From Octopus vulgaris (lineage: Eukaryota), in NCBI GenBank assembly GCA_951406725.2, contig OX597833.1, positions 24,118,001 to 24,182,000 of the forward strand: a stretch of DNA of 64,000 nt, given 5' to 3'. Positions 26,436-55,627 of the stretch are shown one piece after another. A program made the translations under genes and the position numbers. Every line of letters starts with the position of its first letter. The stretch's first letter is position 1. The notes under the pieces are model-generated. The model did not search any database. It was not told the origin of the DNA and saw nothing but the letters and a program-made list of their open reading frames with translations.

Positions 26436-26840
26436 AGTGGGAATAATTATTACCTCCTGGTATTAATACTATCTCTATCGCTAATACGTATTTTTTTAAT
26501 AAACTCCCTGGATAATCACGACACCAGTGTTTGTCCTGTCACTGATCTTCTATATATCGCTGCCTGAGAGAGGAGTCGCTGGTATCTCTAGTAGTCGAGC
26601 GTCATCACTGACGAGACCAGCGAAGGTCGAAATCGCGCGATCTGATAGTCTCGGCGCTGGAGATGGCGGTGATTTATCTCCCCGCCAACAATATAAACAA
26701 AAGTGCAGTTTGCCCCAAAAGCCTATATGAGAGTTTCTCTCATGATATGTACCGCAGTAAAGTTTGTTCTACCAGAATACCCACGTTTAAGTGGGGATAA
26801 TTATTACCTCGCGTTATTAATACTGCCTCTGTCACTAATA
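26436..26840 (+). mobile_element. Small non-coding HHR retroelement (retrozyme-like), 354-nt unit plus 51-nt terminal direct repeat
   Basis: AGTGGGrATAATTATTACCTC...CTAATA at 26436-26486 and 26790-26840; internal intact HHR; ends in (TA)n. Confidence 0.75.
26584..26664 (+). ncRNA. Type I hammerhead ribozyme with canonical core
   Basis: Stem I ATCA/TGAT (extended GTCGAG/CTCGGC and ATCTCTAGT/GCTGGAGAT), CTGACGA (26608-26614), stem II GACC-AGCGAA-GGTC, GAAA, palindromic stem III TCGCGCGA, AUC cleavage predicted after 26642. Confidence 0.92.
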
Positions 26841-26848
26841 TATATATA

Positions 26849-27473
26849 TGTGAAATCACAGGTGATATAGAACTAAATTCATTTTTTAAATGTCTTGCTT
26901 TGAAAAACTGCATTGGGTATGATTAGTGAAATTTTGGTAGTAATGACTTATGTCCCTCTTAGTGTGAGGCATTTATGTGTAATAATGCCCTCTATATAAT
27001 ATAAATTAATATGTTAAAAAAAAAAATTATTTTCGAATTTTTCTCTTATGAGGTTTTTCACGCTAACTACCTGATAATTTCTTGTTAAGATTCCTTATTA
27101 AGAAGTTATCCTTAATTGTTAAATTTATTCCGAAAAAACTTTTCCTACCCGAAATACAGTTCGAAAAATCCCGCCAGTTACCGAATATATGATTTATAAA
27201 CATCTCCATGTGCTTCGCCGGAGAGAGCAGTTGCCTGTTCGACTTCGCCAGGTAGTGTTGGTCGTTTATTTATGATGTGTTCAGAATCAGTTCTACCGAT
27301 GAGCATAGACGCATTTTTTATGCGGTAAGTGTGAAATCACAGGTGATATAGAACTAAATTCATTTTTTAAATGTCTTGCTTTGAAAAACTGCATTGGGTA
27401 TGATTAGTGAAATTTTGGTAGTAATGACTTATGTCCCTCTTAGTGTGAGACATTTGTGTGTAATAATGCCCTC

Positions 27474-27480
<7 letters not shown>
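26849..27480 (+). mobile_element. Small non-coding HHR retroelement, about 480-nt unit plus about 150-nt direct repeat, between (TA)n tracts
   Basis: TGTGAAATCACAGGTGATATAGAAC...CCCTCTATATAAT repeated at 26849-27000 and 27330-27481. Confidence 0.75.
27290..27354 (+). ncRNA. Type I hammerhead ribozyme (CCGAUGA core variant)
   Basis: GTTCTA/TAGAAC stem I, CCGATGA, stem II GCAT...GTGT with inner CGCAT/ATGCG, GAAA, TCAC-AG-GTGA stem III, AUA cleavage predicted after 27348. Confidence 0.8.
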
Positions 27481-27539
<59 letters not shown>

Positions 27540-27546
<7 letters not shown>

Positions 27547-28000
27547 CAGGGGTTGCACAGCAAGCGGAGAACTAACAAAAAACACAAAATACGGAAAACT
27601 AGACGATAACATAACAAACGGGAAACTGGACAAAAACAAGAAACACGGGACATTTGCAGCCGATTTCCTCCCCAGTCAATGTCCAGAATGTTCTAGTAGT
27701 TTTGCGCTTTTTAACATTGAGACTGCTCGATTCTGAGAGGCGCCAAAACATTAAGCTTCTGGGAAAAGCGAACCAATGTATACAAGAACAAGGAAGCTAA
27801 AATAAATGTGTATACAATATGTGATGAAATAATACAAGTGCAACAGAAAAATAATTATACATATACAACAGAAAAATGTCTTTCGGCTATACTACAAAAG
27901 GAAAATAATTATACATCCTTAACAGAGAGGATCTTTCGACTACTAGACGAATGCAGTAGGTTAGCGCCAAGGAGAAATGGAAAGTCTTGACAGACTGAGC
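27540..28000 (-). mobile_element. Probable PLE-related terminal fragment beside (TA)n
   Basis: Similar to the short fragment at 45550-45630; only a degenerate HHR-like motif. Confidence 0.35.
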
Positions 28001-28989
28001 AGGAGAACAGACAAATGTGACCAGCTTAGACGGCGGCTGGTTGAAAAAGAACTGGCTAGGAAAGGAAGAGTTGTAGAGGGCAGATATATAAAGGTAATAA
28101 ATAGGAAGAATCATTAAAAAGTCTGTCAGAGTGTCTTGCAGTATTCGTTTCGACTCCCTTGCGCTCCGATTTCTAATCCGGTGGAGGTAAAAATTGGCCT
28201 TTCGTCCTTTAAAATTCAATAAATAGAGCAGCGGTCCAGTACTGGGATTGATATTTCTTTTCTCGCTCCCCGCCGCCGACTGTCTCCTTTGGAAGAAATC
28301 GGCAATGTTCAAAGCTGGAAAGAGATTGACTCCGTCAGGTTTATACTGCTTAAGTACGCGTTATGTTACGACGGTACAGCTTCAACTCAATGCAGAGTGC
28401 CATGCCCAATAATATTACTTGCTTTTACGAAAGTGATAGTTGCTGGTTTCTTGGAAATAGCTGTGAGAAATTAATCATTCACATATCTTTCTGAAATGGT
28501 GGAAGCGAAGGAATGTACGTTATTTGAGTTTGGGAAGAAAAGGAAAGAAAGAGAGAAAAGAAACAGAAAGCGGGAAGGAAAGAAAAAGGGGAGAGAGACT
28601 AAAAAGGAGAAATAGGGAAAGAGGAATGGAAGTAAAAAAGAAGAGAAAAAGATGAAACGAAGTAAGAGTGGGAGAAATAAATAAATAAAGAAAAAGAAAA
28701 TGAAATTGAGAAAGAAACAAAGAGAAAAAGTTAAAGAAAGAAAGACAGACAGAAGGAAAGAAAAATTGATAAACAGATTGATCGCTAGATAGATGATAAT
28801 TAGTATTTTTTTTTAACCGGAACTTATTATGAAAAGAATTAAAACACAAAACTAACGTACCAATAAATTTTGGAGAAATATTTAAGAATCTTGATTAATA
28901 TTTCTGTTTAGTTTTGTATTAATTTACTTCTATTAAAATAAGAAAGTTCATCCTTTGAACAATGATAACATGGTAACGTTCTCCAATGA

Positions 28990-29105
28990 CCAGTAACTCT
29001 GGTATCAACATTTTCGGACCGCTTTGCATTAAAACACCTAAATAACATTTTATCCAGTCTTGGATATTTTGATGTTTTAACAGGTGGTGCCATTAAGTTA
29101 GACAT
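28990..29105 (-). mobile_element. Tigger/pogo (CENP-B-type HTH) transposase remnant
   Basis: SKYPRLDKMLFRCFNAKRSENV resembles the CENP-B HTH motif KYP.LD..L..WF...RS. Confidence 0.45.
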
Positions 29106-30370
29106 GGCCTAGGCTTATACTGGCCGAAACCTATCAAACTTATGTTTGCCACACACCGCAACATCAACTGGTCTCTGGACAAGCAATTAAGTGCACCATG
29201 TTTCTTAATGTCATACATAAACTGTTGAAGAACTGTTATATTCTCTCATAACAGCTTTTCACTTCCAGCTTTCGTAGCTCTGTTCTAAAGTTAGGGGGTG
29301 TGAGCACATAAAAAAAGGGCGCAGTGATACATACTAAACAATTTTTAACTCATTACTTTATATTTCGCGAAATATTTCATTAGTTATAATATATGTAACT
29401 ATTTCACATTCATTAATTTTGTTTCATTAGCAATGTCTTTATGTATGAAACTTACAACTACTAATTGTGATTTGAAAAAGATGAAACTCCACAGGGTCGT
29501 CTAGTGTTGAGAGGTTATAATGTCAGGATTTGTTTTGGTACTTCAGATGTCAGCGGCTGCCAACACATCACAGGAGATTGAACAGACAGTTCGAAAACAC
29601 AAGTTGATAAAAAATAAAGTAATGACTCCAGAAAGTCTTTCCAAGGCCATGAGATGAACAAAGAAAAAAAATTCCACGTTTATTGCACAAGTGAACTGAA
29701 TGAGTTAAAAAAATTATTAAAAAGACGCCTATTTTGAACAGTGTGCTTTGGTGGGTGAGATCCCCTTGCTCTCCTATTAGCTACGCCACTGTTTACTTCT
29801 TACCAACATTGTATAATTTCAAATTCCAGTTGTAATGAGAGAGTTACATGTTTTTTTTCTTCTTTTTTTCGCACCATTTCCACACTGGTTACTCATATTA
29901 ATATCAGAAGAGATTTTCATCGATGGATGCACAGTATATAAGGAAAGGTATATACTAAACACTTAGGTGCTGGTCACTGTTATCTTCAACTTGTATGTTA
30001 ACTATAACAGAAAATTGTAACAAAAGTTTGGTTGACAAGAACAAAAGTCTGTGTAAAGTTTACAAAACAATCATTTCGTATGTGTTCGTGAAAGACGTGT
30101 GTGTCAGCCAAGATAGTTGACTGCAGTAATTACATTCTGTAGCCGAAGCTGAGCAGCGTAACTTCCTGCAGTCATTGGTCTTGGCTGTCTTGTAATCACT
30201 GCTCAGTTATTAAATAAACCCCCTATATACAGCCGATAAGTCCATTAAAGAAAAGACGCTAAAGACAAAATCGTTAATGAGATTTCAATACTTTGTCTTA
30301 AAATGATTGTTTACAACTGGGACTCTAATGAGTTAAGCACATGCTGGCTCTACTATATTTTCGCCGGTTA

Positions 30371-31205
30371 AGGCGGCGAGCTGGCAGAAACGTTAGCACG
30401 CCGGGCGAAATGCGTAGCCGTATTCTCACGCTATTGTTCAGTGTCCGGGGATAACTGAAATGTGGGCTTATGCTGAACATCTGATGTCCAGCGAAGGAAG
30501 AGTACAGCTGTCGACTGAGTCAATTATAAAAATTGACCCACCGGGAGTTCTAACGAACGAAGGTAAGAATTGTTTTCTCACGGTTGTAGCAATAGCAAAA
30601 GAGGCAGTATGGAAGACAAGGATAAAAGGAATTAAGACAGGCAACTTTATCTCTGGTCACAATTTACGATCCTTTTTTTCCTTTTCATTTGAAAAGGAAA
30701 CTGTGGCTGGAGAAGAGGTGTCTGTCGGAGTGTACGTTCCAAAAGAGATGGAAGTATGTTGCACGAGTGTTGTGCGTGCAAGGAACCGTGTGAATAGACG
30801 AGAAATAAAAAGGTATCAGCGGTAGATCGGGGCTTGTGAGATCGGAGCGTAACTTGATCATCGCTTCATTTGTATTGTTTTTGTACTGTGTATTCCATTC
30901 GATTTTTATGTATTGTATTTTATTTTTGAAGTCACATTTATGTAAAATCATATCGATTCACTGATCCCATCAGTTGTACTGTCCATATCTATGTTTGGCC
31001 CCCGGTGGGCAATAAAGAAATTCGTATTTCGTCTGCCGTTACGTTCTGAGTTCAAATTCCGCCGAGGTTGACTTTGCCTTTCATCCTTTCGGGGTCGATA
31101 AATTAAGTACCAGTTACGCACTGGGGTCGATGTAATCGACTTAATCCGTTTGTCTGTCCTTGTTTGTCCCCTCTGTGTGTAGCCCCTTGTGGGTAGTAAA
31201 GAAAT
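30371..31205 (+). mobile_element. SINE family B interrupted by a LINE insertion
   Basis: Head 30371-30424 resumes at 31023 (CGTATTTCGTCTGCCG). Confidence 0.85.
30425..31022 (+). mobile_element. 5'-truncated Tx1/L1-like LINE 3' end
   Basis: HAIVQCPGITEMWAYAE...AKEAVWKTR (C-terminal zinc-knuckle region), 3' end GGCCCCCGGTGGGCAATAAAGAAAT, TSD CGTATT. Confidence 0.75.
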
Positions 31206-31571
31206 ATATTTTTTCGCCGGTCAGCCCACGGAGATAAGAATGGCTAGCTATTTGCTGACGTAATAAATCTCCCCAAAATCCTGTTTAATATATTTATTAT
31301 TTTTTACATCTGAACACAGTGATTCAGGTTCGGTTCCTAGGAGCTTGTGTTTGGGACTCTGCTAATATTCCTGCTACAAATATTAATAGCATAAAATGTA
31401 CAACTTTGCAATTAATAGTACCTTGCTATATGAAGTATATACATAATATAGCTAATAATAATAGTGCTGAGTCACTAATAGTCGTCTAACATTTACAACT
31501 TTACGAATCTGTCTATATCTGCTATTACTAAAGTATTAGTTTTTCTCGATTGTTCATTACAGACAACTATA

Positions 31572-32050
31572 CAGTAATCCCTCGACTATCGCGGATGTTA
31601 CATTCCAAACCCCTCCCCCGCGATAGGTGAAAATCCGCGAAGTAGAAACAATACTGTACTGCATATTATTTTTAAATTATTTTTATAATTTGTATTTATT
31701 TATTTTATTATAAATGCAAGACAACACAACACATTCGCCTCTCGAGTTTCGTTTTCTGTATAGTATGTATGTGCGATTCTTTGTTTACTCATCTACGGTA
31801 CGCTGCGTATTTTCTTTTAAAATATTTTAATTAATGTGTTATACAGTGCAGTACTGTACTGTATTTTTTTTTAGCAATTTTTAGGAGTGAAATTACGTAT
31901 AATAGCCACAGAAGTAATTAAAATCTAAAAAAATATAAACACCCATCGGCTGCAGAAACCCGCAATAAACTGAGAGGTTTGCGATATAAATTTACATATA
32001 ATAGCTAGAAAAATTTGCGATGTGCTGAGAGCGCGATAAGTGAACCGTGA
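31572..32050. mobile_element. Tigger/pogo-type MITE; partial second copy at 35711-35835
   Basis: TA-CAGTAATCCCTCGACTATCGCG end; 31907-32030 duplicated at 35711-35835. Confidence 0.6.
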
Positions 32051-32293
32051 GTCACTTTAAAAAAAACTTCGATTCAAAAACACCGTTTACAAACTCTATG
32101 CTTGGAATGACCAATTTTAGATACTATTGGAACTTACAAGGTACAGGAATCTTATACGTATACCATTCTGCCTAAATAATGGAACTGAAGATACGATATT
32201 CCTGCAAATCTCACGTCTATTTTCATTCCCCCACTTCACTCTCTATTTCATATCTTATCTAGAATAACTATTGCTTAGCTATTTTCTCACACC

Positions 32294-32341
32294 GTCTCCG
32301 ATGAAGGGATATATAAAATATTCCGGAAACAGCTGTAAGGC
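32294..32341 (+). ncRNA. Minimal type I hammerhead ribozyme (CCGAUGA variant) near the 3' end of a (TA)n-inserted element
   Basis: GTCT/AGGC stem I, CCGATGA, GGGATAT/ATATTCC stem II, GAAA, palindrome CAGCTG, GUA cleavage; (TA)n starts about 60 nt downstream. Confidence 0.75.
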
Positions 32342-32397
32342 CTTCTATTTATAAATGCTCTGAAATCTTTACAGCCTTGGACTTCTATCACATTCTG

Positions 32398-32464
<67 letters not shown>

Positions 32465-32833
32465 GTCTATTGTCAGCAACAGTGAGACAACGTCCCACAA
32501 CCCTCACTAGCTCTAATACCGTTCTCTTACAACATCATTCTAGCTCTCTCTCTGCAATTACTACTAAACAATGCAGAGAACACAAACACAAACTTTACTT
32601 CGTATGCTTTTGGATTTATCATAACCTGCCCGTTGAGGCAAGGTATTGTAACGTAACGGTAAATAAATATTTCCTTAAAACTTCATGCATTGTTTATCTT
32701 TCACATCCTACAACTTGCCGTTATAACAAATTTTTATCGTTATATCTGCTTACTCCGACATTTCATATTATTGTGTACCTAATCAATCTTACCCGTTATA
32801 GCTGGTAACTACACTAATTAAAATCTAACCATT

Positions 32834-32863
<30 letters not shown>

Positions 32864-32866
<3 letters not shown>

Positions 32867-33532
32867 GAATGGTTGTATACTGTCAATCTAACAAGAACGT
32901 GACAGTAGGGGGTACACCACCGCTGTATAGCCCTAGGAAGCATCGAACGCCTCCTGATGGCTTTGACACATTTTCCCCTGTGTCCTTATATACATATACG
33001 AAGGGAGACAAACACCCCCGGCTGCCGAAGCTGCATCTAGGGACACGTGTTTCAGGATCGTTGTCCTTCATCGGCCTAGAGTAGCAGACACCGGTCAGCT
33101 GGTGATATTTGTCTCGACTTCGTAATTGTATATATCTATAACTCAGTGAAGTCTATTCACTGATTATCAAAATAAGAAATATTGAATTCCTAAATCTCTC
33201 GTAGAGACATGTACGGTGGTGGGGCGATAGAATGGTTGTATACTGTCAATCTAACAAGAACGTGACCGTAGGGGGTACACCACCGCTGTATAGCCTAGGA
33301 AGCATCGAACGCCTCCTGATGGCTTTGACACATTCCCCCCCCCCAAGTATATGTATATAAGGACACTGGGAAAAATGTGTCAAAGCCATCAGGAGGCGTT
33401 CGATGCTTCCTAGGGCTATACAGCGGTGGTGTACCCCCTACAGTCACGTTCTTGTTAGATTGACAGTATACAACCATTCTATCGCCCCACCACCGTACAA
33501 GTCTCTACGAGAGATTTAGAAATTCAATATTT

Positions 33533-33537
<5 letters not shown>
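32864..33537 (-). mobile_element. Small non-coding HHR retroelement: 363-nt unit plus about 110-nt tandem extension plus about 190-nt inverted copy, between microsatellites
   Basis: ATAGAATGGTTGTATACTG at 32864 and 33227; reverse complement at 33347-33537. Confidence 0.8.
33018..33094 (-). ncRNA. Type I hammerhead ribozyme (CCGAUGA variant)
   Basis: Minus strand TCTAGG CCGATGA AGGA CAACGA TCCT GAAA CACGTG TC CCTAGA (33080-33036); stem I extends further to CCGG/CCGG. Confidence 0.9.
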
Positions 33538-33591
<54 letters not shown>

Positions 33592-33712
33592 TATTACAGA
33601 TACAGGGTAAAGAATTATTAATTTAATAATTAATAAATTTTACCAAGTAGTTTCGGTATGGAAAGAGAACCATTATCGGTAGAAGCTTTTACAAAAAGTT
33701 TTTTTATATATA

Positions 33713-35367
33713 TCTCTTATTATAAAAGGCAGATTTTATCTGCCTCCCTTTGTAACTTATAGAAATCTACAATATAGGATTTCTTCAATTACAATTTACC
33801 TAGCATTTTTAAGAGTAGAATGCATCGGGTCATGCCAGGTCCAGTTTTTAAAATTTAAACTCCAATTAAGCAAAATTTACAGAAAACTCACATTCTGGTG
33901 TGTATGTCAAATGCTTTTCTTAATGTGGTTTACACCACACGCACACACACAGTGTGCAACGAATAAAATGAAAGTAAATAGCGACAGAGTGATTTGAGGA
34001 AGACTAAACTGAAAGTATTTAAACCACTACTCAAAAAATAAAAAAACACAGCAAACAGAAACAAATAAATACATAACGATTTACTCCTCACACAATTTCT
34101 TCAATTAGAGTTTACCTAAGATTTTTCAAAGTACTCCATTCGGTCATGCCATAATATATTTCTTTCAATTTCACCCCCAATTAAGACAAAATTCGAGAAA
34201 ACTCAATATTTTAACATTTCACTCCGAAAGCATTGATGTACATGTGTGCGTGCGTGAGTGTGTGTGTGTGTGTGTGTGTGTGTTTGATGGGTTGTGCGAC
34301 ACAGAAAGTGTGGTGTGTAAGTGAAGTGCTTTTGTTAGTGTGTGTAAAGAGACAGACAGAGTGAAAGACAGAAATAACTTTTTTTATTCACTTTTTGTAG
34401 TGAGTGACTGAGAGAGAAAAGAGAGAGAGAGAGGTTATGTATGTATATATGTATGTATGGCTTCAGTGACACACACACACAAAAACACATACCTACGTAC
34501 ACCTAAAGCACGCACACACACACACACAAGCGGAGCGCGAACTTCAAAATTTTGGTAGTATTAATTTGCGAGCGTACTTCTAAGCGCGCGTAATTGAAAG
34601 TTTTCACTATGATATCATCACGTGCGAAAAAATTCGAAGGGTTTTGAACAATTGAGATACAGATGTCACGCCTGTATTGAAACCATTGCTAAGCTGCCGT
34701 AATTGCTTAATTAAGACTTTGTTTAAATTGAAAGGGGCAAATATGTGACGAGGTTGAAAAAAAATACCCCAGAAAAAATGTACTGCTGGTATTTATATAA
34801 TTCACTACTATTTTGCTACAATGTCATGAAAAAGAAAAAATTTAGGTATGTAAATCGAATTCGCCACCCCCTTTTCCCCGTTCGCGTTTGTGTAAAAAAA
34901 ATTATTATTTAAGTTTTAAAAATTATTTACTTTGTTCAAAAAATATTAATATTAATTAATTTTCAAGAATTATTTAATTTTATTCTGTAAAATAGTAATT
35001 AATTCATTTATCTGTAAATCCGCGAGGTTGTTACTCAGGCACCTAGAATGGTAACCTTCAACTAACACTATCTCCTCCGAGACCCTGCGGCGCAAGTTGA
35101 CCAAAATTGAGAGTATGGTAGAAGAAGGGTTGCTCTTCCTTCCGTAGAACATAAAATTCAAATCGGACCATGTTAACACCAAAAATTATTTACATCAAAA
35201 AGATGCTTTTTTCTATGAAAATCCCTATTTTTTACGATTTTTTCACTGCTGTGTCGCCACTTTTCGGTGTATTTCGACCAGAAAAATGTTCACAAAATTT
35301 TTACTTTTCAAAATTACAATTCCAGCGGGTCGAAACAAACCCGAGCAACGCCGGGCGATACTGCTAG
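33713..35367 (+). mobile_element. Non-autonomous Helitron
   Basis: A|TC 5' end, subterminal hairpin CCCGAGCAACGCCGGG, 3' CTAG|T; splits a host repeat (33600-33712 / 35368-35645) related to 54296-55308. Confidence 0.85.
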
Positions 35368-35644
35368 TAATTAAATATAATTAAAGGTTAAGCAACAAGT
35401 TGCTTCACCACATACCGATAATTTAGAAATAGCACCCAAAAGACAGCTCATTCCTTTTTACTACAGATATGACTCCACAGATAACAATATTTGAACTCAC
35501 ATAGGCAAAAAGAAGAAAAAATAACAAAGTCAAACAGTCTTCGACTAAAAACGCGTCCATAATTAATCGAAGACTGTTTGATTTCGGTATTTTTTCTTCT
35601 TTTTGCCTATGTGAGTTACAAATATTGTTACCTGTGAAGTCATA

Positions 35645-35701
<57 letters not shown>

Positions 35702-35839
35702 TAGATATACCACAGAGGTAATTAAAATCTAAAAAAATATAAATATCTATCGGCCGCAGAACCCCCCGATATACTGAGGGCTTCGCGATATAAATTTACG
35801 TATAATAGCCAGAAAAATTTGCGATGTACTGAGAATAAG

Positions 35840-36145
35840 TTAGATAATACTGGTTTATGGGATTACTCTGGGTTTCACGTCCATAAAGCGCTTAACTTTG
35901 CGGTGTATCACCAGATCCCAAACCTGTTGGTTTATGAACCCTCAAGCATTTCAGGAAATTCCTGCTGGCCTATTGGAACCCACATGATTACAGAGTCACT
36001 TATGATCGATAGTCAAAAGGAGACAACCCCCTGTTGTTAACATTGAGTAGTGAGGTCCTTTCCTCCTGCATACGCCGTAAAGCTAAGCGCTTTATGGACG
36101 TGAAACACAGGGTAATCTCATAAACCGGTCTTATCTATCTTTATC
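35840..36145 (+). mobile_element. Severely 5'-truncated PLE: endonuclease C-terminus plus pLTR, with an inverted pLTR copy
   Basis: KHFRKFLLAYWNPHD matches LHFRKFQLALWNPQD of the PLE at about 41860-41905; inverted ends 35840-35925 / 36070-36145. Confidence 0.75.
35859..35919 (-). ncRNA. Hammerhead ribozyme of the PLE pLTR (A6G-mutated copy)
   Basis: GGGAT CTGGTGA [long stem II] GAAA CCCAGAG TA ATCCC. Confidence 0.6.
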
Positions 36146-36239
36146 TATATAATATAGTGCTCTATAACTTAAAGTGTGTTCCTTTTTCGGACTTCTGTTT
36201 TACTGGCGATGTGTGTGTGTGTGTGCGTGTGAGTGTGTA

Positions 36240-37139
36240 TGAGGTGGTATCAAAAAGTTCCCAGACTAGTTCTGTAGCGCGCCAACTGATGGCAGCACAC
36301 GATTGCGTGCGCAGTGAGAGCTAGCAGTGACCTTCATGAAGCAGTGAGTCGAGTAACATGACTGTCTTCTCTTCACAAGTTGTGAAATTTCTGTTTTAGT
36401 GATCACGTGTATTCAGTAGTCTGCGATTTTATCACAGACAGGAACAAAGAGCCAACACGTGAAATTTTGCGTTAAATTTGTGAAGTCTGCTGCAGAGACA
36501 ATCAGCATGCTTCGGCAAACTTACGGTGACGAGGCAATGGGCCGTACGCAATGTTTCGAGTGACACTGGCGCTTCAAAAGCGCAAGAATGTCCCTGAAAG
36601 ACGATGAGCCTTCTGGAAGACCTGTCACGTGCGTTACCACCGAGAATGTGATATGCATCGAGAATTCGTCGCCCATGGCCAGACTTAGTGGAAAGTTCTA
36701 CTGAGACGTTTAGAAGCGTTTGAGAGAGAACATTCGACAAATGGGACCGGATCTGTGGAGCGCAAAGAATTGGATTGTTCACGACGACAATGCACTCTGT
36801 CACCGAGCTCTCCTCACTTGTGAGTTTCTCGCCCAAAATAACAAGGTATCGCCTCCTCACCCGCTCTATTCACCAGATCTGTAGATTTCTATCTCTTCCC
36901 CAAGATGAAAATGCAACTCAAAGGTCGCCGTTTTAACTCCGTTGTCGAGATCCAGAGCGAATCACAGAAGGTCTTCGACTCACTTACGGGAAACGACTTC
37001 CCGGCCGGATTCCAAAGGAAGCAGGAACGCTGGAACCGGTGTAGTGCTGCGCAAGGTAGCTACTTCAAAGGGAAACTAAGGTAAATAAGTTATTTTTCTT
37101 TTAACATAACTACACCTGGAACATTTTGATACCACCTTG
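36240..37139 (+). mobile_element. Internally deleted mariner transposon
   Basis: TIRs GAGGTGGTATCAAAAAGTTCC / GGAACATTTTGATACCACCTTG, TA flanks; EQRAN, DDEPSGRP, HDDNALCH, HPLYSPDL remnants. Confidence 0.9.
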
Positions 37140-37143
37140 TATG

Positions 37144-37187
<44 letters not shown>

Positions 37188-37292
37188 AGGTGGAATCAAA
37201 ATGTTCTAGATATAGTTATGTTAAAACGATATATATATATATATATATGTACAAGGTGGTATCAAAATGTTCCAGGTGTAGTTATGTTAAAA

Positions 37293-37369
<77 letters not shown>

Positions 37370-37370
<1 letters not shown>

Positions 37371-37605
37371 ATTATTGGTGATATATGAACGCAATTGAAC
37401 AGAAATCGTTTTATATACACGTGTTCGAAAGCACAAATTACAAATATATATATTTGCTTTCTCTTCAGGAAGAAAATAGAAATTTTCTATATACATATGG
37501 TCCCATATCATCGGATTTATATTTGTGCCTTGAACACGTGTAGAATGAAATAAAACGATTTCTGTTCAATCTGCGTTCACTCCATTTCTTCAATTCACCA
37601 ATAAT
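37370..37605. repeat. Inverted-repeat element with a degenerate HHR between (TA)n tracts
   Basis: Arms GAACGCAATTGAACAGAAATCGTTTTAT / ATAAAACGATTTCTGTTCAATCTGCGTTC; minus strand CTGAAGA-GAAAGC...GCTTTC-GAA-CACGTG-TA at 37416-37477. Confidence 0.6.
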
Positions 37606-37757
37606 GTTCTAATTTCAATTATCCGCACCAACGCACGGTTGCAACACCATATGGTTGTACCTCCAACCGTGCTGTTTTACTGCTGTGATTTTTGCTACTA
37701 AGGTATCGGTTAAACTTTGATTAATCTACTACAAGATTATTCATCTTTCTATTTCAC

Positions 37758-37800
<43 letters not shown>

Positions 37801-38275
37801 GTCCCTCCCCCCACACATGTATGTATTTATGCATGTATGTGCGATAGAAAATGAATAAGTTAATAGAATCACAATGCTAATTGTAAACTAATAGTATTCT
37901 TTTTCATTAACGCGTAACTTATATTCCTATTCGTTTATTGTTTTTCTTTTTCACAAAAAATGGTATTACAATTTATCTATACTATTTTGATGGTTGGACC
38001 AGCTGTTTTCTCAACAATTGTCCTCTGTGCTAACATTTATTTAAATAGTATATTACCTTTGTTACTACAGCTGTCACTCTTGCTGAACCAATCGATATTA
38101 CAGTGTATCTATATGATATGATATGTATATATATAAATATGGATGCATTCATATATGCATAACAAAAGAATCAACAAACTGTTGTTTTGAATAAATGGAT
38201 ATACGAAATTTACTTACTAAACATTTATTTTAGTTTCACTGGAAACATATACTGTGAATAGACCAGAGAATATTC

Positions 38276-38329
<54 letters not shown>

Positions 38330-38333
<4 letters not shown>

Positions 38334-39567
38334 GTCAGCCAATAAATAATACGATTTTTTAATACTCCTTGCATTTTTCCTAGATAAAATTATTTTTCAA
38401 TCTAAAATATACTCTCCTTCATTTTCTACAATGCTCTTCCATCTATCTGGTAGACTTGCAAAATCCCTCCTCCAAAATTCACTTGTTCGTGACGAAAAAT
38501 ACTCCTTCAGTTTTGTTCTGACCTCGTCTACAGAATTCATATTTTTTTCGTCCAAATGATTTTGAAGACTGCAGAATAAATAATAATCAGATGGGGCAAT
38601 ATCCGGCGTATATGATGGATGGGGCATCGTTTCCTATTCAAACTACTCCAGACTTTGGAATGTCACCCTCACTGTATGTGGCCGAGCATTATCCTGATGG
38701 CAGTATACCTTTCGTCTTGAAACCAAAGATGGTCATTTTCCATTTAGGGCTGATTTAAGTCGTGCAAGCTGCTTGCTGTTGATCTCCTTTGCGTTTAAAA
38801 GTTCAAAGTGGACTAAACCTTTCATATCCCACCAAAGAGATAACAACACCTTACGTGGGTGAAGACCTACTTCAGCTTGGGGTACCGGTGTTTCTCCTTT
38901 TTCTACCCACTGTCTTCGGCACTTGACAATTTTATAGAGAACCCATTTCTCGTCGCCAGTCACTATTCAGTCTAAAAAAGGTTCATTCGTGAGATGTGGC
39001 AGCATAGAAGAGCATACATTCACTCTCTGCGCGCGATTAGCCTAGGAAAGTTTGTGAGGAACCCATTGACCCAATTTGCTGACTTTTCCGATGATGCGCA
39101 GGTGTCAATGAATGGTTAAATGACCAAATCCAAGCATCAGTTACGATGATATTTTGTTCCTCCAGGGTTTGCAGGACGTCCTTGTCGAACACTGCAAATC
39201 TTCCAGGACGCGGCTCACTTTCTAGGCTGTAGTTTCCGGCTCAGAATTTCTGAAACCACTGTTGACACTAGCCTACGCTTACTGTCCGACGTCCATATAC
39301 TGCATTAATAGTCATCGCACTTTCCGTTGCGTTGTCGCCTTTGTTGAACTCATAAAGTATGCCGAATATGACCCTTTGTCACTTCCATTATAGCTTTGAA
39401 AATATGTTAAAATCGAACTGCATTCTTCAAAACTTGCATAAAGAATAAATACAAGGTAAAATTACTAGCTGCTTTTATAGCAAGTTGATGCAGGCAGTTT
39501 ATCCCGTGCCCATCCGACTTTTAGTTCATGTAATTGAAAAAAGCGCACTATTTATGGGATGACCCAA
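38330..39567 (-). mobile_element. Near full-length mariner (Mos1-like) transposon, pseudogenised
   Basis: TIRs TTGGGTCAGCCAATAAATA / TATTTATGGGATGACCCAA; TGDEKWV, HQDNARPH, HPSYTPDIAPSDYYLF motifs with stops and frameshifts. Confidence 0.92.
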
Positions 39568-39572
39568 TATAA

Positions 39573-39608
<36 letters not shown>

Positions 39609-39842
39609 CTGCTTGTTTCTTTCAAAAGAATCTTAAAGTTTTCCTTCACTCTTGTACGACTTAAGGCCACACAAAGCTGGCCGTGACTAAATACGGGATA
39701 GAACATGTATGGTAAATCAGATTAATACACTTCGCATACTTCCCTTGTACACACACACACATACACACATATACTCACACAGAGTTGAAAAGCTGTTTGA
39801 TTTTTCTTTTCAGAGTTGAATGTTTACTATCCCACTTCCATT

Positions 39843-39898
<56 letters not shown>

Positions 39899-40248
39899 AC
39901 ACACACACTTCCTTTTTACATACACACACATATACTCACACAGAATTGAAACGCTGTTTGACTTTTTCACCGTAGAATTTCCATCATCCCACTACCAAGT
40001 TTGCCATCATCCCTTCTTTTCTCATTCATATGTTGTCATGGAGAAAAACACAAGAGTATTATTATAGTGTCCGCGTGTGTGTGTATACACACACACACAC
40101 ACACAAAGTAAAATCTCTATTTGCAAACGTAAAGTAGAAGTCTTGATTGGGACGATGTTACTAACTTTTTTAACTTCGGGAAAACAATTTCCAGCTTGCT
40201 ACCGACGCCCAAGTGCATCCTTATACCTCGAACGAAGCCTTAACAGTA

Positions 40249-40293
40249 CCTGCAGACAATGGTTTCTAGGTTATTTCTCTTCATCGGCACAGG
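40249..40293 (-). ncRNA. Type I hammerhead ribozyme (CCGAUGA variant), copy 1
   Basis: CCTGTG CCGATGA ... GAAA CCATTG TC TGCAGG; weak stem II. Confidence 0.65.
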
Positions 40294-40596
40294 ATAACCG
40301 TTGGTTACAGACAGTAGCACTATGCCTTGCTCGAGGTATATACTTTTAATGTGACACACAGTCATTGATCTCATGAAGAGGAAAACAATTAGTTTTAAAT
40401 CTCTGAGCAAGAAATAAGTATTAGCAGTACTACAAAGTAAAATATATTTGATACCGTAAAGTGGCAGTCCTGATTAGGACGATGTTACTACATTCTTTGG
40501 CCCCTGGGAAACATCTTTTCCAGCTGGTTACCGACACAACTGCGTCCTTATACCTCGGTCAATGGAGCTAATGTCCCCACTCAGCCTTAAACGGTA

Positions 40597-40641
40597 CTTG
40601 CGGACCATGGTTTCTGAATTATTTCGTTTCATCGGCACAGG
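40597..40641 (-). ncRNA. Type I hammerhead ribozyme (CCGAUGA variant), copy 2
   Basis: CCTGTG CCGATGA AAC-GAA-ATAA-TTC-A GAAA CCATGG TC CGCAAG; palindromic stem III. Confidence 0.7.
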
Positions 40642-41235
40642 ATAACCGTTGGCTAGAGATGGGGCTAAAAAAGGTAGCAACATCATCTTAATCAGGACTG
40701 CCACTTTACGTTGGTAAATAGATTTTACTTTGTAGTACTGTTACTACTTACTTCTCGCTCAGAGAATTAAAACTAATGGTTTTCCTCTTTACGAGATCAG
40801 TGACTGCGTGTCTCTTTAAAAGTTTGTACCTCGAACAAGGCCTAATGCTGCCATCTCTAGCCACTCTCCACTCGTTAGCCGCACAGATTTTCTTAAACTC
40901 TGGCAATACGTTTCTAGTAATCTATCCTTCTTTATGGGGCTCATCGAAATCCACGATCTTCCGAAATATTTCTTGAGGACGTTATGAAGAGTTTCATTTG
41001 CTTCAAACTTATATTTAATTCGAGTAATGGTAAGTCGCATAGATAGCTCTGTTTGTAACTCCCCCATAAACTGTCTTGGTACTTTGATTTTCAAACCTCC
41101 AGAAGCACTTTAGGGTAAATTTCTTTTATTCTAAACTTAATCTGGATCCCTTCATTATTTGTTATAGGTTTAAACTGAAAAAGAAATTAAAATTGAGTTA
41201 TCAGCTGCTAAAGTGTATACAATTTTTGATTACAA

Positions 41236-41672: not shown

Positions 41673-43435
41673 ATTAATGGGGAAGGCTGGCTTATGAGAT
41701 TACCCTGAGTTTCGTGTCCATAAAGGGTTTAGCTTTGTGGCGTATCGTCAGACCCCAAGACCTCTTCAAAAAATGGAGGGGGAAAAGCCTCGTTACAAAG
41801 GTTAATAATAGGGGATTATCCCCTATGCCATTAGCTATCGACTTCCGGCTTGCCGTCATCTTGCGGATTCCATAGCGCTAGCTGGAATTTCCTAAAATGT
41901 AAACATGGCCCGAAAATCTCCGTTCTGGAGTTAAGGATGTTCCCTGGTTCGAGCGAGTCTTTTAGGATTCTCGCGTGTTCATCTATGCATAACTAGCAGC
42001 GCTTCGTCCCGTTGGTGTGCGGGCCTGGGTTTTCGAGGATTTTCCATGAGATCGCGTATGGGATCCCATCGTCTCTTAGTTACCAGGCGTGATTGGCCAG
42101 CGACGTTATGTATCTCCTTTCCGGAACTCTGAAGGAGGACCTAACGTTGGAGAGACGCTACTTGAGAGAATTCCCAGTGCTTCCAATGTATTTCCGTGGG
42201 CGCCTGTTGTCGATGCTGCACCTGTTGCTATTGTTTTTGCTGCTGTCGCTGATATTGTTGCTAGTGCAGAAGATGATAGTGGAGTCAGTAATGCTACCGC
42301 CATTGCCGGTTATGAAGTAGGTGCTCACTAACAAGGGAAGAAGCAGAGCAAGGTTCACCCAATTTCATATAGTCGATTTTTACCCGTCTATATCAAAAGG
42401 GCTACTGACCAAGGCGCTTTCTTTCGTTAGGGGCTTCACTAGAATTAGCGACAAAGATGTAGAAATTATGTATGCCAGAAAGACAGTGCTGTTCAACAGG
42501 TTCGGTATGGGTCAAGCAATCCGACCCCGCAGGCTCCTTTGACGTAGTGATGGGAGCCTACGACAGCGCTGACGTACGCGACCCCATCGGGCTGTATATC
42601 CTAGATACCCTTAGGAAAAGTTCCCCTCTGTCCTCTTTGGCCTCTACAGAAATGACGCCCTAGCCATCTCTAGGAGAGCAAGCGGCCATCCACTAGACAG
42701 GCTTAGGAAAGACTTAATCAGCACGCTTGCCTCTATGGGATTGTAGATCACCATAAAGACCAACCTCACAACAGTGGATTTCTTAGACGTCACTCTTGAT
42801 TTGGGTTCCGGTACTTACAGGCCCTACCGCAAACCAAATGAGAGGCTAACGTATATCAACCCAGCCTCATGTCACCCACAGAACGTGTTCAAGAGTGTTA
42901 GTAAGAGGTTTACGAGCCTTTCCTCCAACTAAGCGGCTTTTAGCCCAGCGTCCCCGTACTATAACGAGGCCCTAGCTGCTAGCAGGTTTAGAGATTTCGT
43001 CTTCTACATGCCGAAACCCAACAGCCACAGAAGGAAGCGCCGCAGAAATACAATTTGGTTTGCTCCCCTTCTCCCTTAACACAATAATGCCCGTAGGTAG
43101 ACTTTTCCTTAAATTAATAGACAAGCATTTCGCTAGTCCCCATAGGCACGGGCCCATTTTCAACAGGCGCAACTTTAGGGTCTCGTTTAGTTGTGCCTCC
43201 AATATTAAAAGCATCCTGGTTAACGCTCCTAAGCTACAGGAAGAGATAGTTTGTTCATGTAGGAACCGCAACAGTTTCCCGGTAGGAGGCCGCTGTGAAA
43301 CCAAAGTGGTCGTCTATCAAGTCGAAATAGTAGCGAACTCTGCCAATACCACCGGCAGAAGCAATAGCAGCAGTAGACACGAGAACAGAACCAACAACAC
43401 TACCACTACCATCGCCATAGTGGACAGCATAATCA
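41672..43435. mobile_element. 5'-truncated, 5'-inverted Penelope-like element (RT plus GIY-YIG pseudogene, HHR-bearing 3' end)
   Basis: Plus strand 42325-43435: FHIVDFYPSIS, SFDVVMGAYDSAD, GLYRNDAL, VDFLDVTLDL, IFNRRNFRVSFSC, CSCRNRNSFPVGGRC, VVYQV. Minus strand 42320-41840: KYIGSTGNSLK*R, ISWKILE, KRC*LC, LNSRTEI..CLH. Confidence 0.88.
41696..41756 (-). ncRNA. Type I hammerhead ribozyme in the PLE 3' pLTR
   Basis: GGGGT CTGACGA [CCA-CAAAG...CTTTA-TGG] GAAA CTCAGGG TA ATCTC, same strand as the GIY-YIG remnant. Confidence 0.75.
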
Positions 43436-55356: not shown

Positions 55357-55627
55357 AGAAAAAATGGAGAAATTGACTTGCAGACAAAAGTTTATTTAAA
55401 GATTTTCCAATTCAATTTAATGAAATTCTAGTCCTACAACCGTTTCCATCTCCAATTAGTTCAATTAATTTAATTTAATTTAATTTAATTTAATTTAATT
55501 TCTGTAATTGAACTAATTGGAGATGGAAACGGTTGTTGGACTAAAATTTCATTATAAGGATTTGAATATCTTTAAATAAACTGATGTCTGCATGTCAATT
55601 TCTCCATTTTCTCCTTTTTCTCATTCA
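55350..55627. repeat. Inverted repeat around (AATTT)n carrying the 3' half of an HHR
   Basis: ACAACCGTTTCCATCTCCAATTAGTTCAATT / AATTGAACTAATTGGAGATGGAAACGGTTGT. Confidence 0.75.

What the first reader, a model, noticed from the sequence alone, without database searches (positions are those of the whole stretch)
27290..40641. Recurrent CCGAUGA (U4C) catalytic-core variant in four distinct HHR families
The HHRs at 27296, 32298, 33068 (minus), 40281 and 40629 (minus) all read CCGAUGA instead of CUGAUGA, although their flanks and stems are unrelated. The change creates a CpG, which runs against the direction of decay, so it is probably the family consensus. It may be a lineage-specific, possibly attenuated, ribozyme core. 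Strict CUGANGA searches would miss it.
Basis: partly seen in the sequence, partly recalled or inferred. Interest (0 to 1): 0.7.

Follow-up and report, generated by a model that had tools for sequence, protein, structure and literature searches.

The report
C4-core hammerheads in Penelope-type repeats
Thousands of small jumping repeats in this animal genome, from at least five unrelated families, carry a likely self-cutting hammerhead RNA whose core reads CCGA instead of the textbook CUGA, a change already known from viroids and likely tolerated, but one that makes strict motif searches miss about half of such motifs here.

Summary
Confirmed. All five sites are type I hammerhead motifs with a CCGAUGA core, in four families with no detectable similarity outside the motif (40281 is on the minus strand; 40281 and 40629 are one family). 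C4 is the majority letter genome-wide: A 33/46, B 1,549/2,588, C 96/100 listed, D 10/15, plus a fifth family E of 11,159 copies (73/100). Of 24,750 minimal-hammerhead matches, 11,363 read CCGA; a purine at position 4 gives only 296. In A, B and E, C4 and U4 sort by subfamily, so masters of both kinds multiplied. A, C and D are non-coding 348-481-base units inserted as more-than-unit tandems with inverted ends, like Penelope-mobilised retrozymes. 'Lineage-specific' fails for the variant: CCGA cores are published from a viroid, a citrus viroid-like RNA and zeta viruses (two cleave in vitro), and this scan noted them in phages and once elsewhere in this genome. As a family consensus in animal retroelements I did not find it in print. 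Best reading: position 4 tolerates either pyrimidine, and founder masters fixed C repeatedly. Cleavage and attenuation are untested; a search for a genomic cut footprint was negative.

The parts
27290..27354 (+). Family A type I hammerhead: core CCGAUGA 27296-27302, extended helix II, GAAA 27333-27336, 5-bp helix III, predicted cut after 27348 (AUA)
26849..27493 (+). Family A insertion: 481-base non-coding unit, about 1.3 copies, flanked by (TA)n
   Evidence: 164-nt direct repeat, spacing 481, 97%; same period in 8 of 30 loci
32294..32341 (+). Family B type I hammerhead: core 32298-32304, 7-bp helix II behind an A/G mismatch, palindromic helix III (ACAGCUGU), predicted cut after 32337 (GUA); short solo repeat ending in (TA)n
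33030..33087 (-). Family C extended type I hammerhead: core 33074-33068, helix II AGGA/UCCU with CAACGA loop, palindromic helix III (ACACGUGU), predicted cut after 33042 (GUC), 6-bp helix I plus an outer helix
32864..33544 (-). Family C insertion: 362-363-base unit, about 1.3 tandem copies plus an inverted partial copy, between microsatellites
   Evidence: same period in 17 of 30 loci
40249..40293 (-). Family D hammerhead, copy 1 (core 40287-40281; helix III palindrome decayed to CCAUUG)
40597..40641 (-). Family D hammerhead, copy 2 (core 40635-40629; helix III ACCAUGGU, helix II decayed)
40116..40863 (-). Family D insertion: two diverged tandem units 348 bases apart plus an inverted arm
   Evidence: period 332-361 in 9 of 15 loci
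26604..26646 (+). Neighbouring hammerhead with canonical U4 core (CUGACGA) in a 354-base unit; internal contrast, not part of the finding

Best explanation
These are type I hammerhead motifs of short non-coding repeats, likely mobilised by Penelope-like retrotransposons, in which position 4 of the core holds either pyrimidine, so that a C4 core likely still cuts well enough and spread whenever the master copy of a family or subfamily happened to carry it. Shown: the anatomy, C4 as majority letter in five families, the near absence of purines at position 4, the sorting of C4 and U4 by subfamily, and more-than-unit tandem and inverted insertions at microsatellites. Inferred: a transcript across tandem units folds the hammerhead (for B, C, D probably as a dimer through the palindromic helix III), cuts after the NUH triplet, the monomer is closed into a circle, and a Penelope-type RT/GIY-YIG protein copies it back in trans. 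C4 would lose the U4 contact to the A6-N7 phosphate and probably slow the cut without abolishing it.
For: Counts: A 33 C4 / 13 U4 of 46; B 1,549 C4 of 2,588; C 397 copies, first 100 listed 96 CG, 3 TG, 1 CA; D 10 C4 / 5 U4 of 15; E 11,159 copies, first 100 listed 73 CG, 20 TG, 4 CA, 3 other. Generic minimal pattern: 24,750 with Y4 (control 30), 11,363 of them C4 (control 13), 296 with purine (control 50). Trees with position 4 masked: label changes A 2 vs 7.3 shuffled, B 3 vs 9.7, E 1 vs 6.5, each 0 of 500 shuffles as low. Subfamily changes keep helices paired (A: U-G/U-A and G-C/G-U; B: G-U/G-C). Family C keeps C4 across two helix III forms and in arrays of up to 3.4 units, one with 493 bases 100% identical between units. 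Two family-C copies cofold through intermolecular helix III with the core unpaired. CCGA hammerheads of zeta virus ZV1(-) and betaviroid-like 786 cleave in vitro at the predicted site; only passages seen.
Against: No cleavage data for these sequences. A search for family-C copies that begin at the predicted cut gave 2 hits, 1 a true junction, about what chance would give among roughly 400 copies. Monomer MFE folds do not show the open hammerhead core, z-scores -2.8 to +0.2. A pairwise mutagenesis study of one type III hammerhead reports low activity for all single mutants of the CUGA region (passages). No coding Penelope element with a C4 terminal hammerhead was found; the young intact 781-aa family carries a U3-A8 core instead. 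The pattern counts are dominated by a few families and are not independent events. Tree roots are midpoints, so the direction of each switch is not established.
Confidence: 0.68

Rival explanations
1. C4 is a selected brake: slower cutting leaves more uncut multimers or stable circles, which are better templates for more-than-unit reverse transcription, so C4 masters outcompete U4 masters.
For: C4 is the majority in five dissimilar families. In family A the related copies in three other organisms read U4 (100% of contig depth at 27297) and so does 92% of depth in the same-label organism, so C4 looks derived in a young subfamily. U4C is described as considerably lowering activity in vitro.
Against: U4 subfamilies also amplified inside A, B and E; the large family F is nearly all U4; the youngest coding element uses U4 with U3-A8. 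Another paper says the same change did not affect self-cleavage. No rate or fitness data.
Confidence: 0.17
2. The C4 hammerheads are dead or dispensable passengers: the repeats are copied from uncut read-through transcripts, and an inactivating change was fixed in the masters.
For: No cut footprint; minimal Penelope hammerheads cleave poorly even with U4; Naiad elements were reported to spread without canonical hammerheads.
Against: A dead motif should drift at any position, yet the other core letters are invariant across the aligned families (partly built into my patterns), purines at position 4 stay near 1%, and helix changes between subfamilies keep pairing.
Confidence: 0.12
3. The five window copies are random U-to-C mutants of families whose consensus is CUGAUGA.
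For: In the wider family A and in part of family B, U4 is common.
Against: C4 majorities in every family counted; in D the U4 copies are the ones with decayed CpGs elsewhere (12 of 17 sites versus 8 of 37, Fisher p = 0.0009).
Confidence: 0.01

Closest known systems
U4C (CCGA) natural hammerhead variants of viroid-like RNAs: peach latent mosaic viroid (Ambros and Flores 1998, not held, known through PMC3088659 and PMC9608096), citrus CtaHVd-LR1 (PMC9608096), zeta virus ZV1 and betaviroid-like RNAs (bioRxiv 10.64898/2026.09.16.752053)
   Same: Identical core change; reported to self-cleave.
   Different: Those are mostly type III motifs in RNA replicons and single variants or single genomes; here type I motifs in DNA repeats, with C4 as the majority letter of whole families of hundreds to thousands of copies.
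Minimal and palindromic-helix-III hammerheads of Penelope-like elements (Cervera and de la Pena 2014, PMC4209133; parts 1-2 of 4 read, supplement file 2 searched)
   Same: Type I topology, extra nucleotide after A9, palindromic helix III suited to dimers, dispersed solo and inverted copies; family E fits the min-HHR layout.
   Different: Consensus and descriptor there are CUGANGA, with U3-A8 as the one core variant named in the parts read; no C4 core in the supplement passages returned.
Metazoan non-LTR retrozymes (Cervera and de la Pena 2020, PMC7229834, passages; Li et al. 2026 preprint 10.64898/2026.07.22.740005, parts 1-2 of 5)
   Same: Non-coding units of a few hundred bases with one type I hammerhead, in short tandems; proposed Penelope origin.
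   Different: C4 core; mostly 1-3.4 units with inverted ends rather than long arrays; family A unit (481) is slightly above the 150-450 range; circular RNA not shown here.

Membership tests
Type I hammerhead ribozyme | Core C-Y-G-A-N-G-A, G-A-A-A and N-U-H in type I order | tested here: met
   Y4 as in the published descriptor CYGANGA
Type I hammerhead ribozyme | Three helices around the core, kept across copies | tested here: met
   pair counts in 30/30/30/15 loci of A, B, C, D (partly fixed by the search patterns); the two D copies in the window are decayed
Type I hammerhead ribozyme | Match to an Rfam hammerhead model | tested here: not met
   no hammerhead family among 148 matches at E <= 1 in the 64-kb window, also not for the canonical U4 motif at 26608, so the models are insensitive to this layout
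Type I hammerhead ribozyme | Self-cleavage at the NUH site | not testable with these tools
   indirect genomic footprint search inconclusive
min-HHR as defined by the 2014 descriptor | Strict CUGANGA first box | tested here: not met
   descriptor seq=^cuganga; these read CCGANGA, so they are variants outside that descriptor
Non-LTR retrozyme | Short non-coding unit with one type I hammerhead, in tandem copies | tested here: met
   A 481, C 362-365, D about 348 bases; no relevant ORF in the loci. Family B shows no consistent tandem period in 30 loci and is not filed here
Non-LTR retrozyme | Expressed as circular RNA | not testable with these tools
   only assembled contigs were available
Penelope-like element derivative | Partial tandems with an inverted truncated copy, inserted at microsatellites | tested here: met
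   described for PLEs in PMC8557442
Penelope-like element derivative | Sequence link to the terminal repeat of a coding RT/GIY-YIG element | tested here: inconclusive
   50 GIY-YIG loci examined carry U3-A8 cores or none; E copies lie near PLE fragments in a few loci without a consistent layout

The most novel reading that the evidence does not exclude
Penelope-mobilised RNAs in this lineage repeatedly tune their ribozyme by switching U4 to C4: a slower core is selected because it balances cut monomers against uncut or circular templates, making CCGA an adaptive, recurrent rate setting of animal retroelement hammerheads that descriptor-based surveys have missed wholesale.
Probability: 0.17. 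Interest if true: 0.65.

Novelty: new variant of a known kind. Interest (0 to 1): 0.36.

Why it matters
Practical: the published Penelope and retrozyme surveys I could check use a strict CUGANGA box, which here would miss 46% of one minimal-hammerhead class (11,363 of 24,750) and whole retrozyme-like families; claims that an element lacks a hammerhead need re-testing with CYGANGA. Conceptual: sister subfamilies that differ at position 4 in otherwise near-identical RNAs (A, B, E) are natural matched pairs for asking how much cleavage a Penelope-type element needs, which is an open question. If C4 is only tolerated, the finding is a modest extension of a known variant to a new class of element.

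Tried and rejected
Rfam scan: no hammerhead hit, only microsatellite-driven microRNA noise. Random sample of 60 x 10 kb: only 8 strict motifs (7 U4, 1 C4; reversed control 0), too few for a ratio, so I used pattern counts. Cut-footprint search in family C: 2 hits, 1 true junction, no enrichment; I ran no offset control. Search for a coding partner with a C4 terminal repeat: not found. Expression: no RNA holder listed on record; contigs only, so nothing is concluded on transcription, circles or C-to-U editing. Pairwise distances include non-homologous flanks and were dropped in favour of blast identities (C about 94%, A 92%, D 82%, B 79%). Family D tree gave no clustering of U4 (73 of 500 shuffles). 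C4 cores in published Naiad/Chlamys/Hydra consensus files: none of the 16 passages returned was evidently a hammerhead core. Lunse et al. 2017 and Ambros and Flores 1998 are not held, so I could not check whether the former lists C4 among Penelope hammerhead variants; the 2020 retrozyme supplement and file 1 of the 2014 supplement could not be read. These gaps bear directly on the novelty claim. The planned count of CCGA cores in viral contigs was not obtained.
Full report
Observation. CCGATGA stands at all five coordinates, 40281 on the minus strand. The heptamer is enriched in the window (11 against 2.9 expected, 0 of 100 shuffles), the canonical CTGATGA is not (12 against 10.1). Each site continues as helix II, GAAA, helix III, NUH and a strand complementary to the bases before the core, that is a type I hammerhead. 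A strict descriptor passed 27296, 32298 and 33068; the copies at 40281 and 40629 belong to one family and are decayed. Rfam models found none of them, nor the canonical U4 motif at 26608. The four families (A 27296, B 32298, C 33068, D 40281/40629) share no blastn similarity outside the motif.

Is C4 the consensus? Family-specific patterns with position 4 left open were run over the 2.8-Gb own genome; reversed controls gave 0. A: 46 copies, 33 C4, 13 U4. B: 2,588 copies, 1,549 C4. C: 160 with the full helix III pattern, 96 of the first 100 C4; 397 with a shorter pattern, the first 100 reading 96 CG, 3 TG, 1 CA at positions 4-5. D: 15 copies, 10 C4. A generic minimal pattern gave 24,750 matches (control 30), of which 11,363 are CCGA (control 13); most belong to a fifth family E (CCGACGA; 11,159 copies; first 100: 73 CG, 20 TG, 4 CA, 2 AG, 1 CC), while family F is nearly all U4. 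With a purine at position 4 the same pattern gave 296 (control 50), scattered among the same families like post-insertion mutants. These are exact-pattern lower bounds, weighted by a few large families. In 600 kb of arbitrary stretches a strict descriptor found 7 U4 and 1 C4, so the share depends on the motif class counted.

Where do the U4 copies come from? In D they carry decayed CpGs elsewhere (12 of 17 sites against 8 of 37 in C4 copies, p = 0.0009) and do not cluster on the tree: deamination products. In C they are rare and as frequent as expected from mutation. In A, B and E they cluster when position 4 is masked (changes 2, 3 and 1 against 7.3, 9.7 and 6.5 shuffled; 0 of 500 each; 30 loci per family), and in A 12 of 13 U4 copies share a second diagnostic change. 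So masters of both kinds multiplied. Midpoint roots do not fix the direction. Contigs of public runs add a comparison: family A relatives in organisms B, C and D read U at 27297 in all depth laid, and 92% in organism A, so C4 looks derived and recent there; for family C no difference row appears at position 4 (33073) in runs of organisms A-D, though 11 rows were hidden, so C4 is probably shared by those relatives. CpG decay is mild overall, in line with the report that octopus transposons lack methylation (PMC9476566, passages); that the genome is octopus-like is taken from recalled repeats and the scan's notes, not from a call.

What carries the motifs? A, C and D are non-coding units of 481, 362-365 and about 348 bases, inserted as more-than-unit partial tandems, often with an inverted truncated copy, next to (TA)n: direct repeats at the family period in 8 of 30, 17 of 30 (some loci share an insertion) and 9 of 15 loci. 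Family C reaches 3.4 units, and one insertion has 493 bases identical between units. A second C subfamily has a different helix III but keeps C4. This is the layout described for Penelope-like insertions and for non-LTR retrozymes. B and E are short, mostly solo ends. The genome holds young intact Penelope-type elements (781-aa RT plus GIY-YIG) that could supply the enzyme, but their hammerhead is the known U3-A8 variant, and I found no coding element with a C4 terminal motif.

Mechanism. Shown: anatomy, counts, subfamily sorting, pairing-preserving changes between subfamilies. Inferred from the known families: transcription across tandem units, dimeric folding through palindromic helix III (two family-C copies cofold this way; monomer folds do not open the core), cleavage after NUH, circularisation and reverse transcription in trans. 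The A6-N7 phosphate contacts U4 in the crystal structure; cytosine lacks the N3 proton (general chemistry, recalled), so a slower cut is likely, possibly offset by loop contacts in the extended C and D motifs. A direct genomic test, copies that begin exactly at the predicted cut, gave 1 true junction among roughly 400 copies, no enrichment.

Literature. U4C is a known natural variant: 'considerably decreases activity in vitro' yet permits viroid infectivity (PMC3088659, passage and section 8); found in a citrus viroid-like RNA, where the authors say it did not affect self-cleavage in the viroid case (PMC9608096, passages); present in zeta virus ZV1(-) and betaviroid-like 786, whose ribozymes cleave in vitro at the predicted sites (preprint passages). 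One type III mutagenesis found all single mutants of this region low in activity (PMC9901934, passages). A 2026 virome search uses CYGANGA; the Penelope surveys use ^cuganga. Searches for the variant in animal retroelements returned no such report, but Lunse et al. 2017 on Penelope hammerhead variants and two supplements could not be read. The scan's own unchecked notes list U4C in 22 findings from at least 21 genomes, the 8 shown all phages, and one 359-base CCGAUGA tandem elsewhere in this genome.

Verdict. The variant itself is known and not lineage-specific; its role as family consensus in animal retroelements I did not find described. Tolerance with founder effects (0.68) fits better than selected attenuation (0.17) or a dead passenger (0.12). 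Interest 0.36.

Noticed in passing
L226-L245, e.g. L229:1126-3468 (G000:C6:133344000-133349000): A young Penelope-type family with an intact 781-aa RT plus GIY-YIG ORF in many copies 95-99% identical; its 3' hammerhead has the U3-A8 core (UUGAUAA) with a CAUG palindrome about 880-980 bases after the stop.
   Followed up: partly
window 26436-26845 (+): A 354-base unit with a canonical CUGACGA hammerhead (core 26608) and an 8-base palindromic helix III directly abuts the family A insertion; the shared (TA)n suggests a reused target.
   Followed up: no
window about 41700-41760 (-), core at 41751: A decayed type I hammerhead-like motif with CUGACGA core and weak helix II.
   Followed up: no
G000 genome-wide, e.g. 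L248-L277: Family E: 11,159 exact copies of a minimal hammerhead (CCGACGA, C at both 4 and 7) at the end of a pyrimidine-rich repeat; its coding partner was not identified.
   Followed up: partly
L285-L287: Family C subfamily whose helix III has one extra G (ACACGGUGU), no longer a perfect palindrome, in tandems of up to 3.4 units.
   Followed up: partly
L247 (G000:C11:29937507): One family C copy begins exactly at the predicted cleavage site after unrelated A/T-rich DNA; a single case, within chance.
   Followed up: yes
window 37105-37220, 55418-55554: Long perfect-looking hairpins around (TA)n or A/T-rich centres (weak microRNA-model hits), probably inverted termini of mobile repeats.
   Followed up: no
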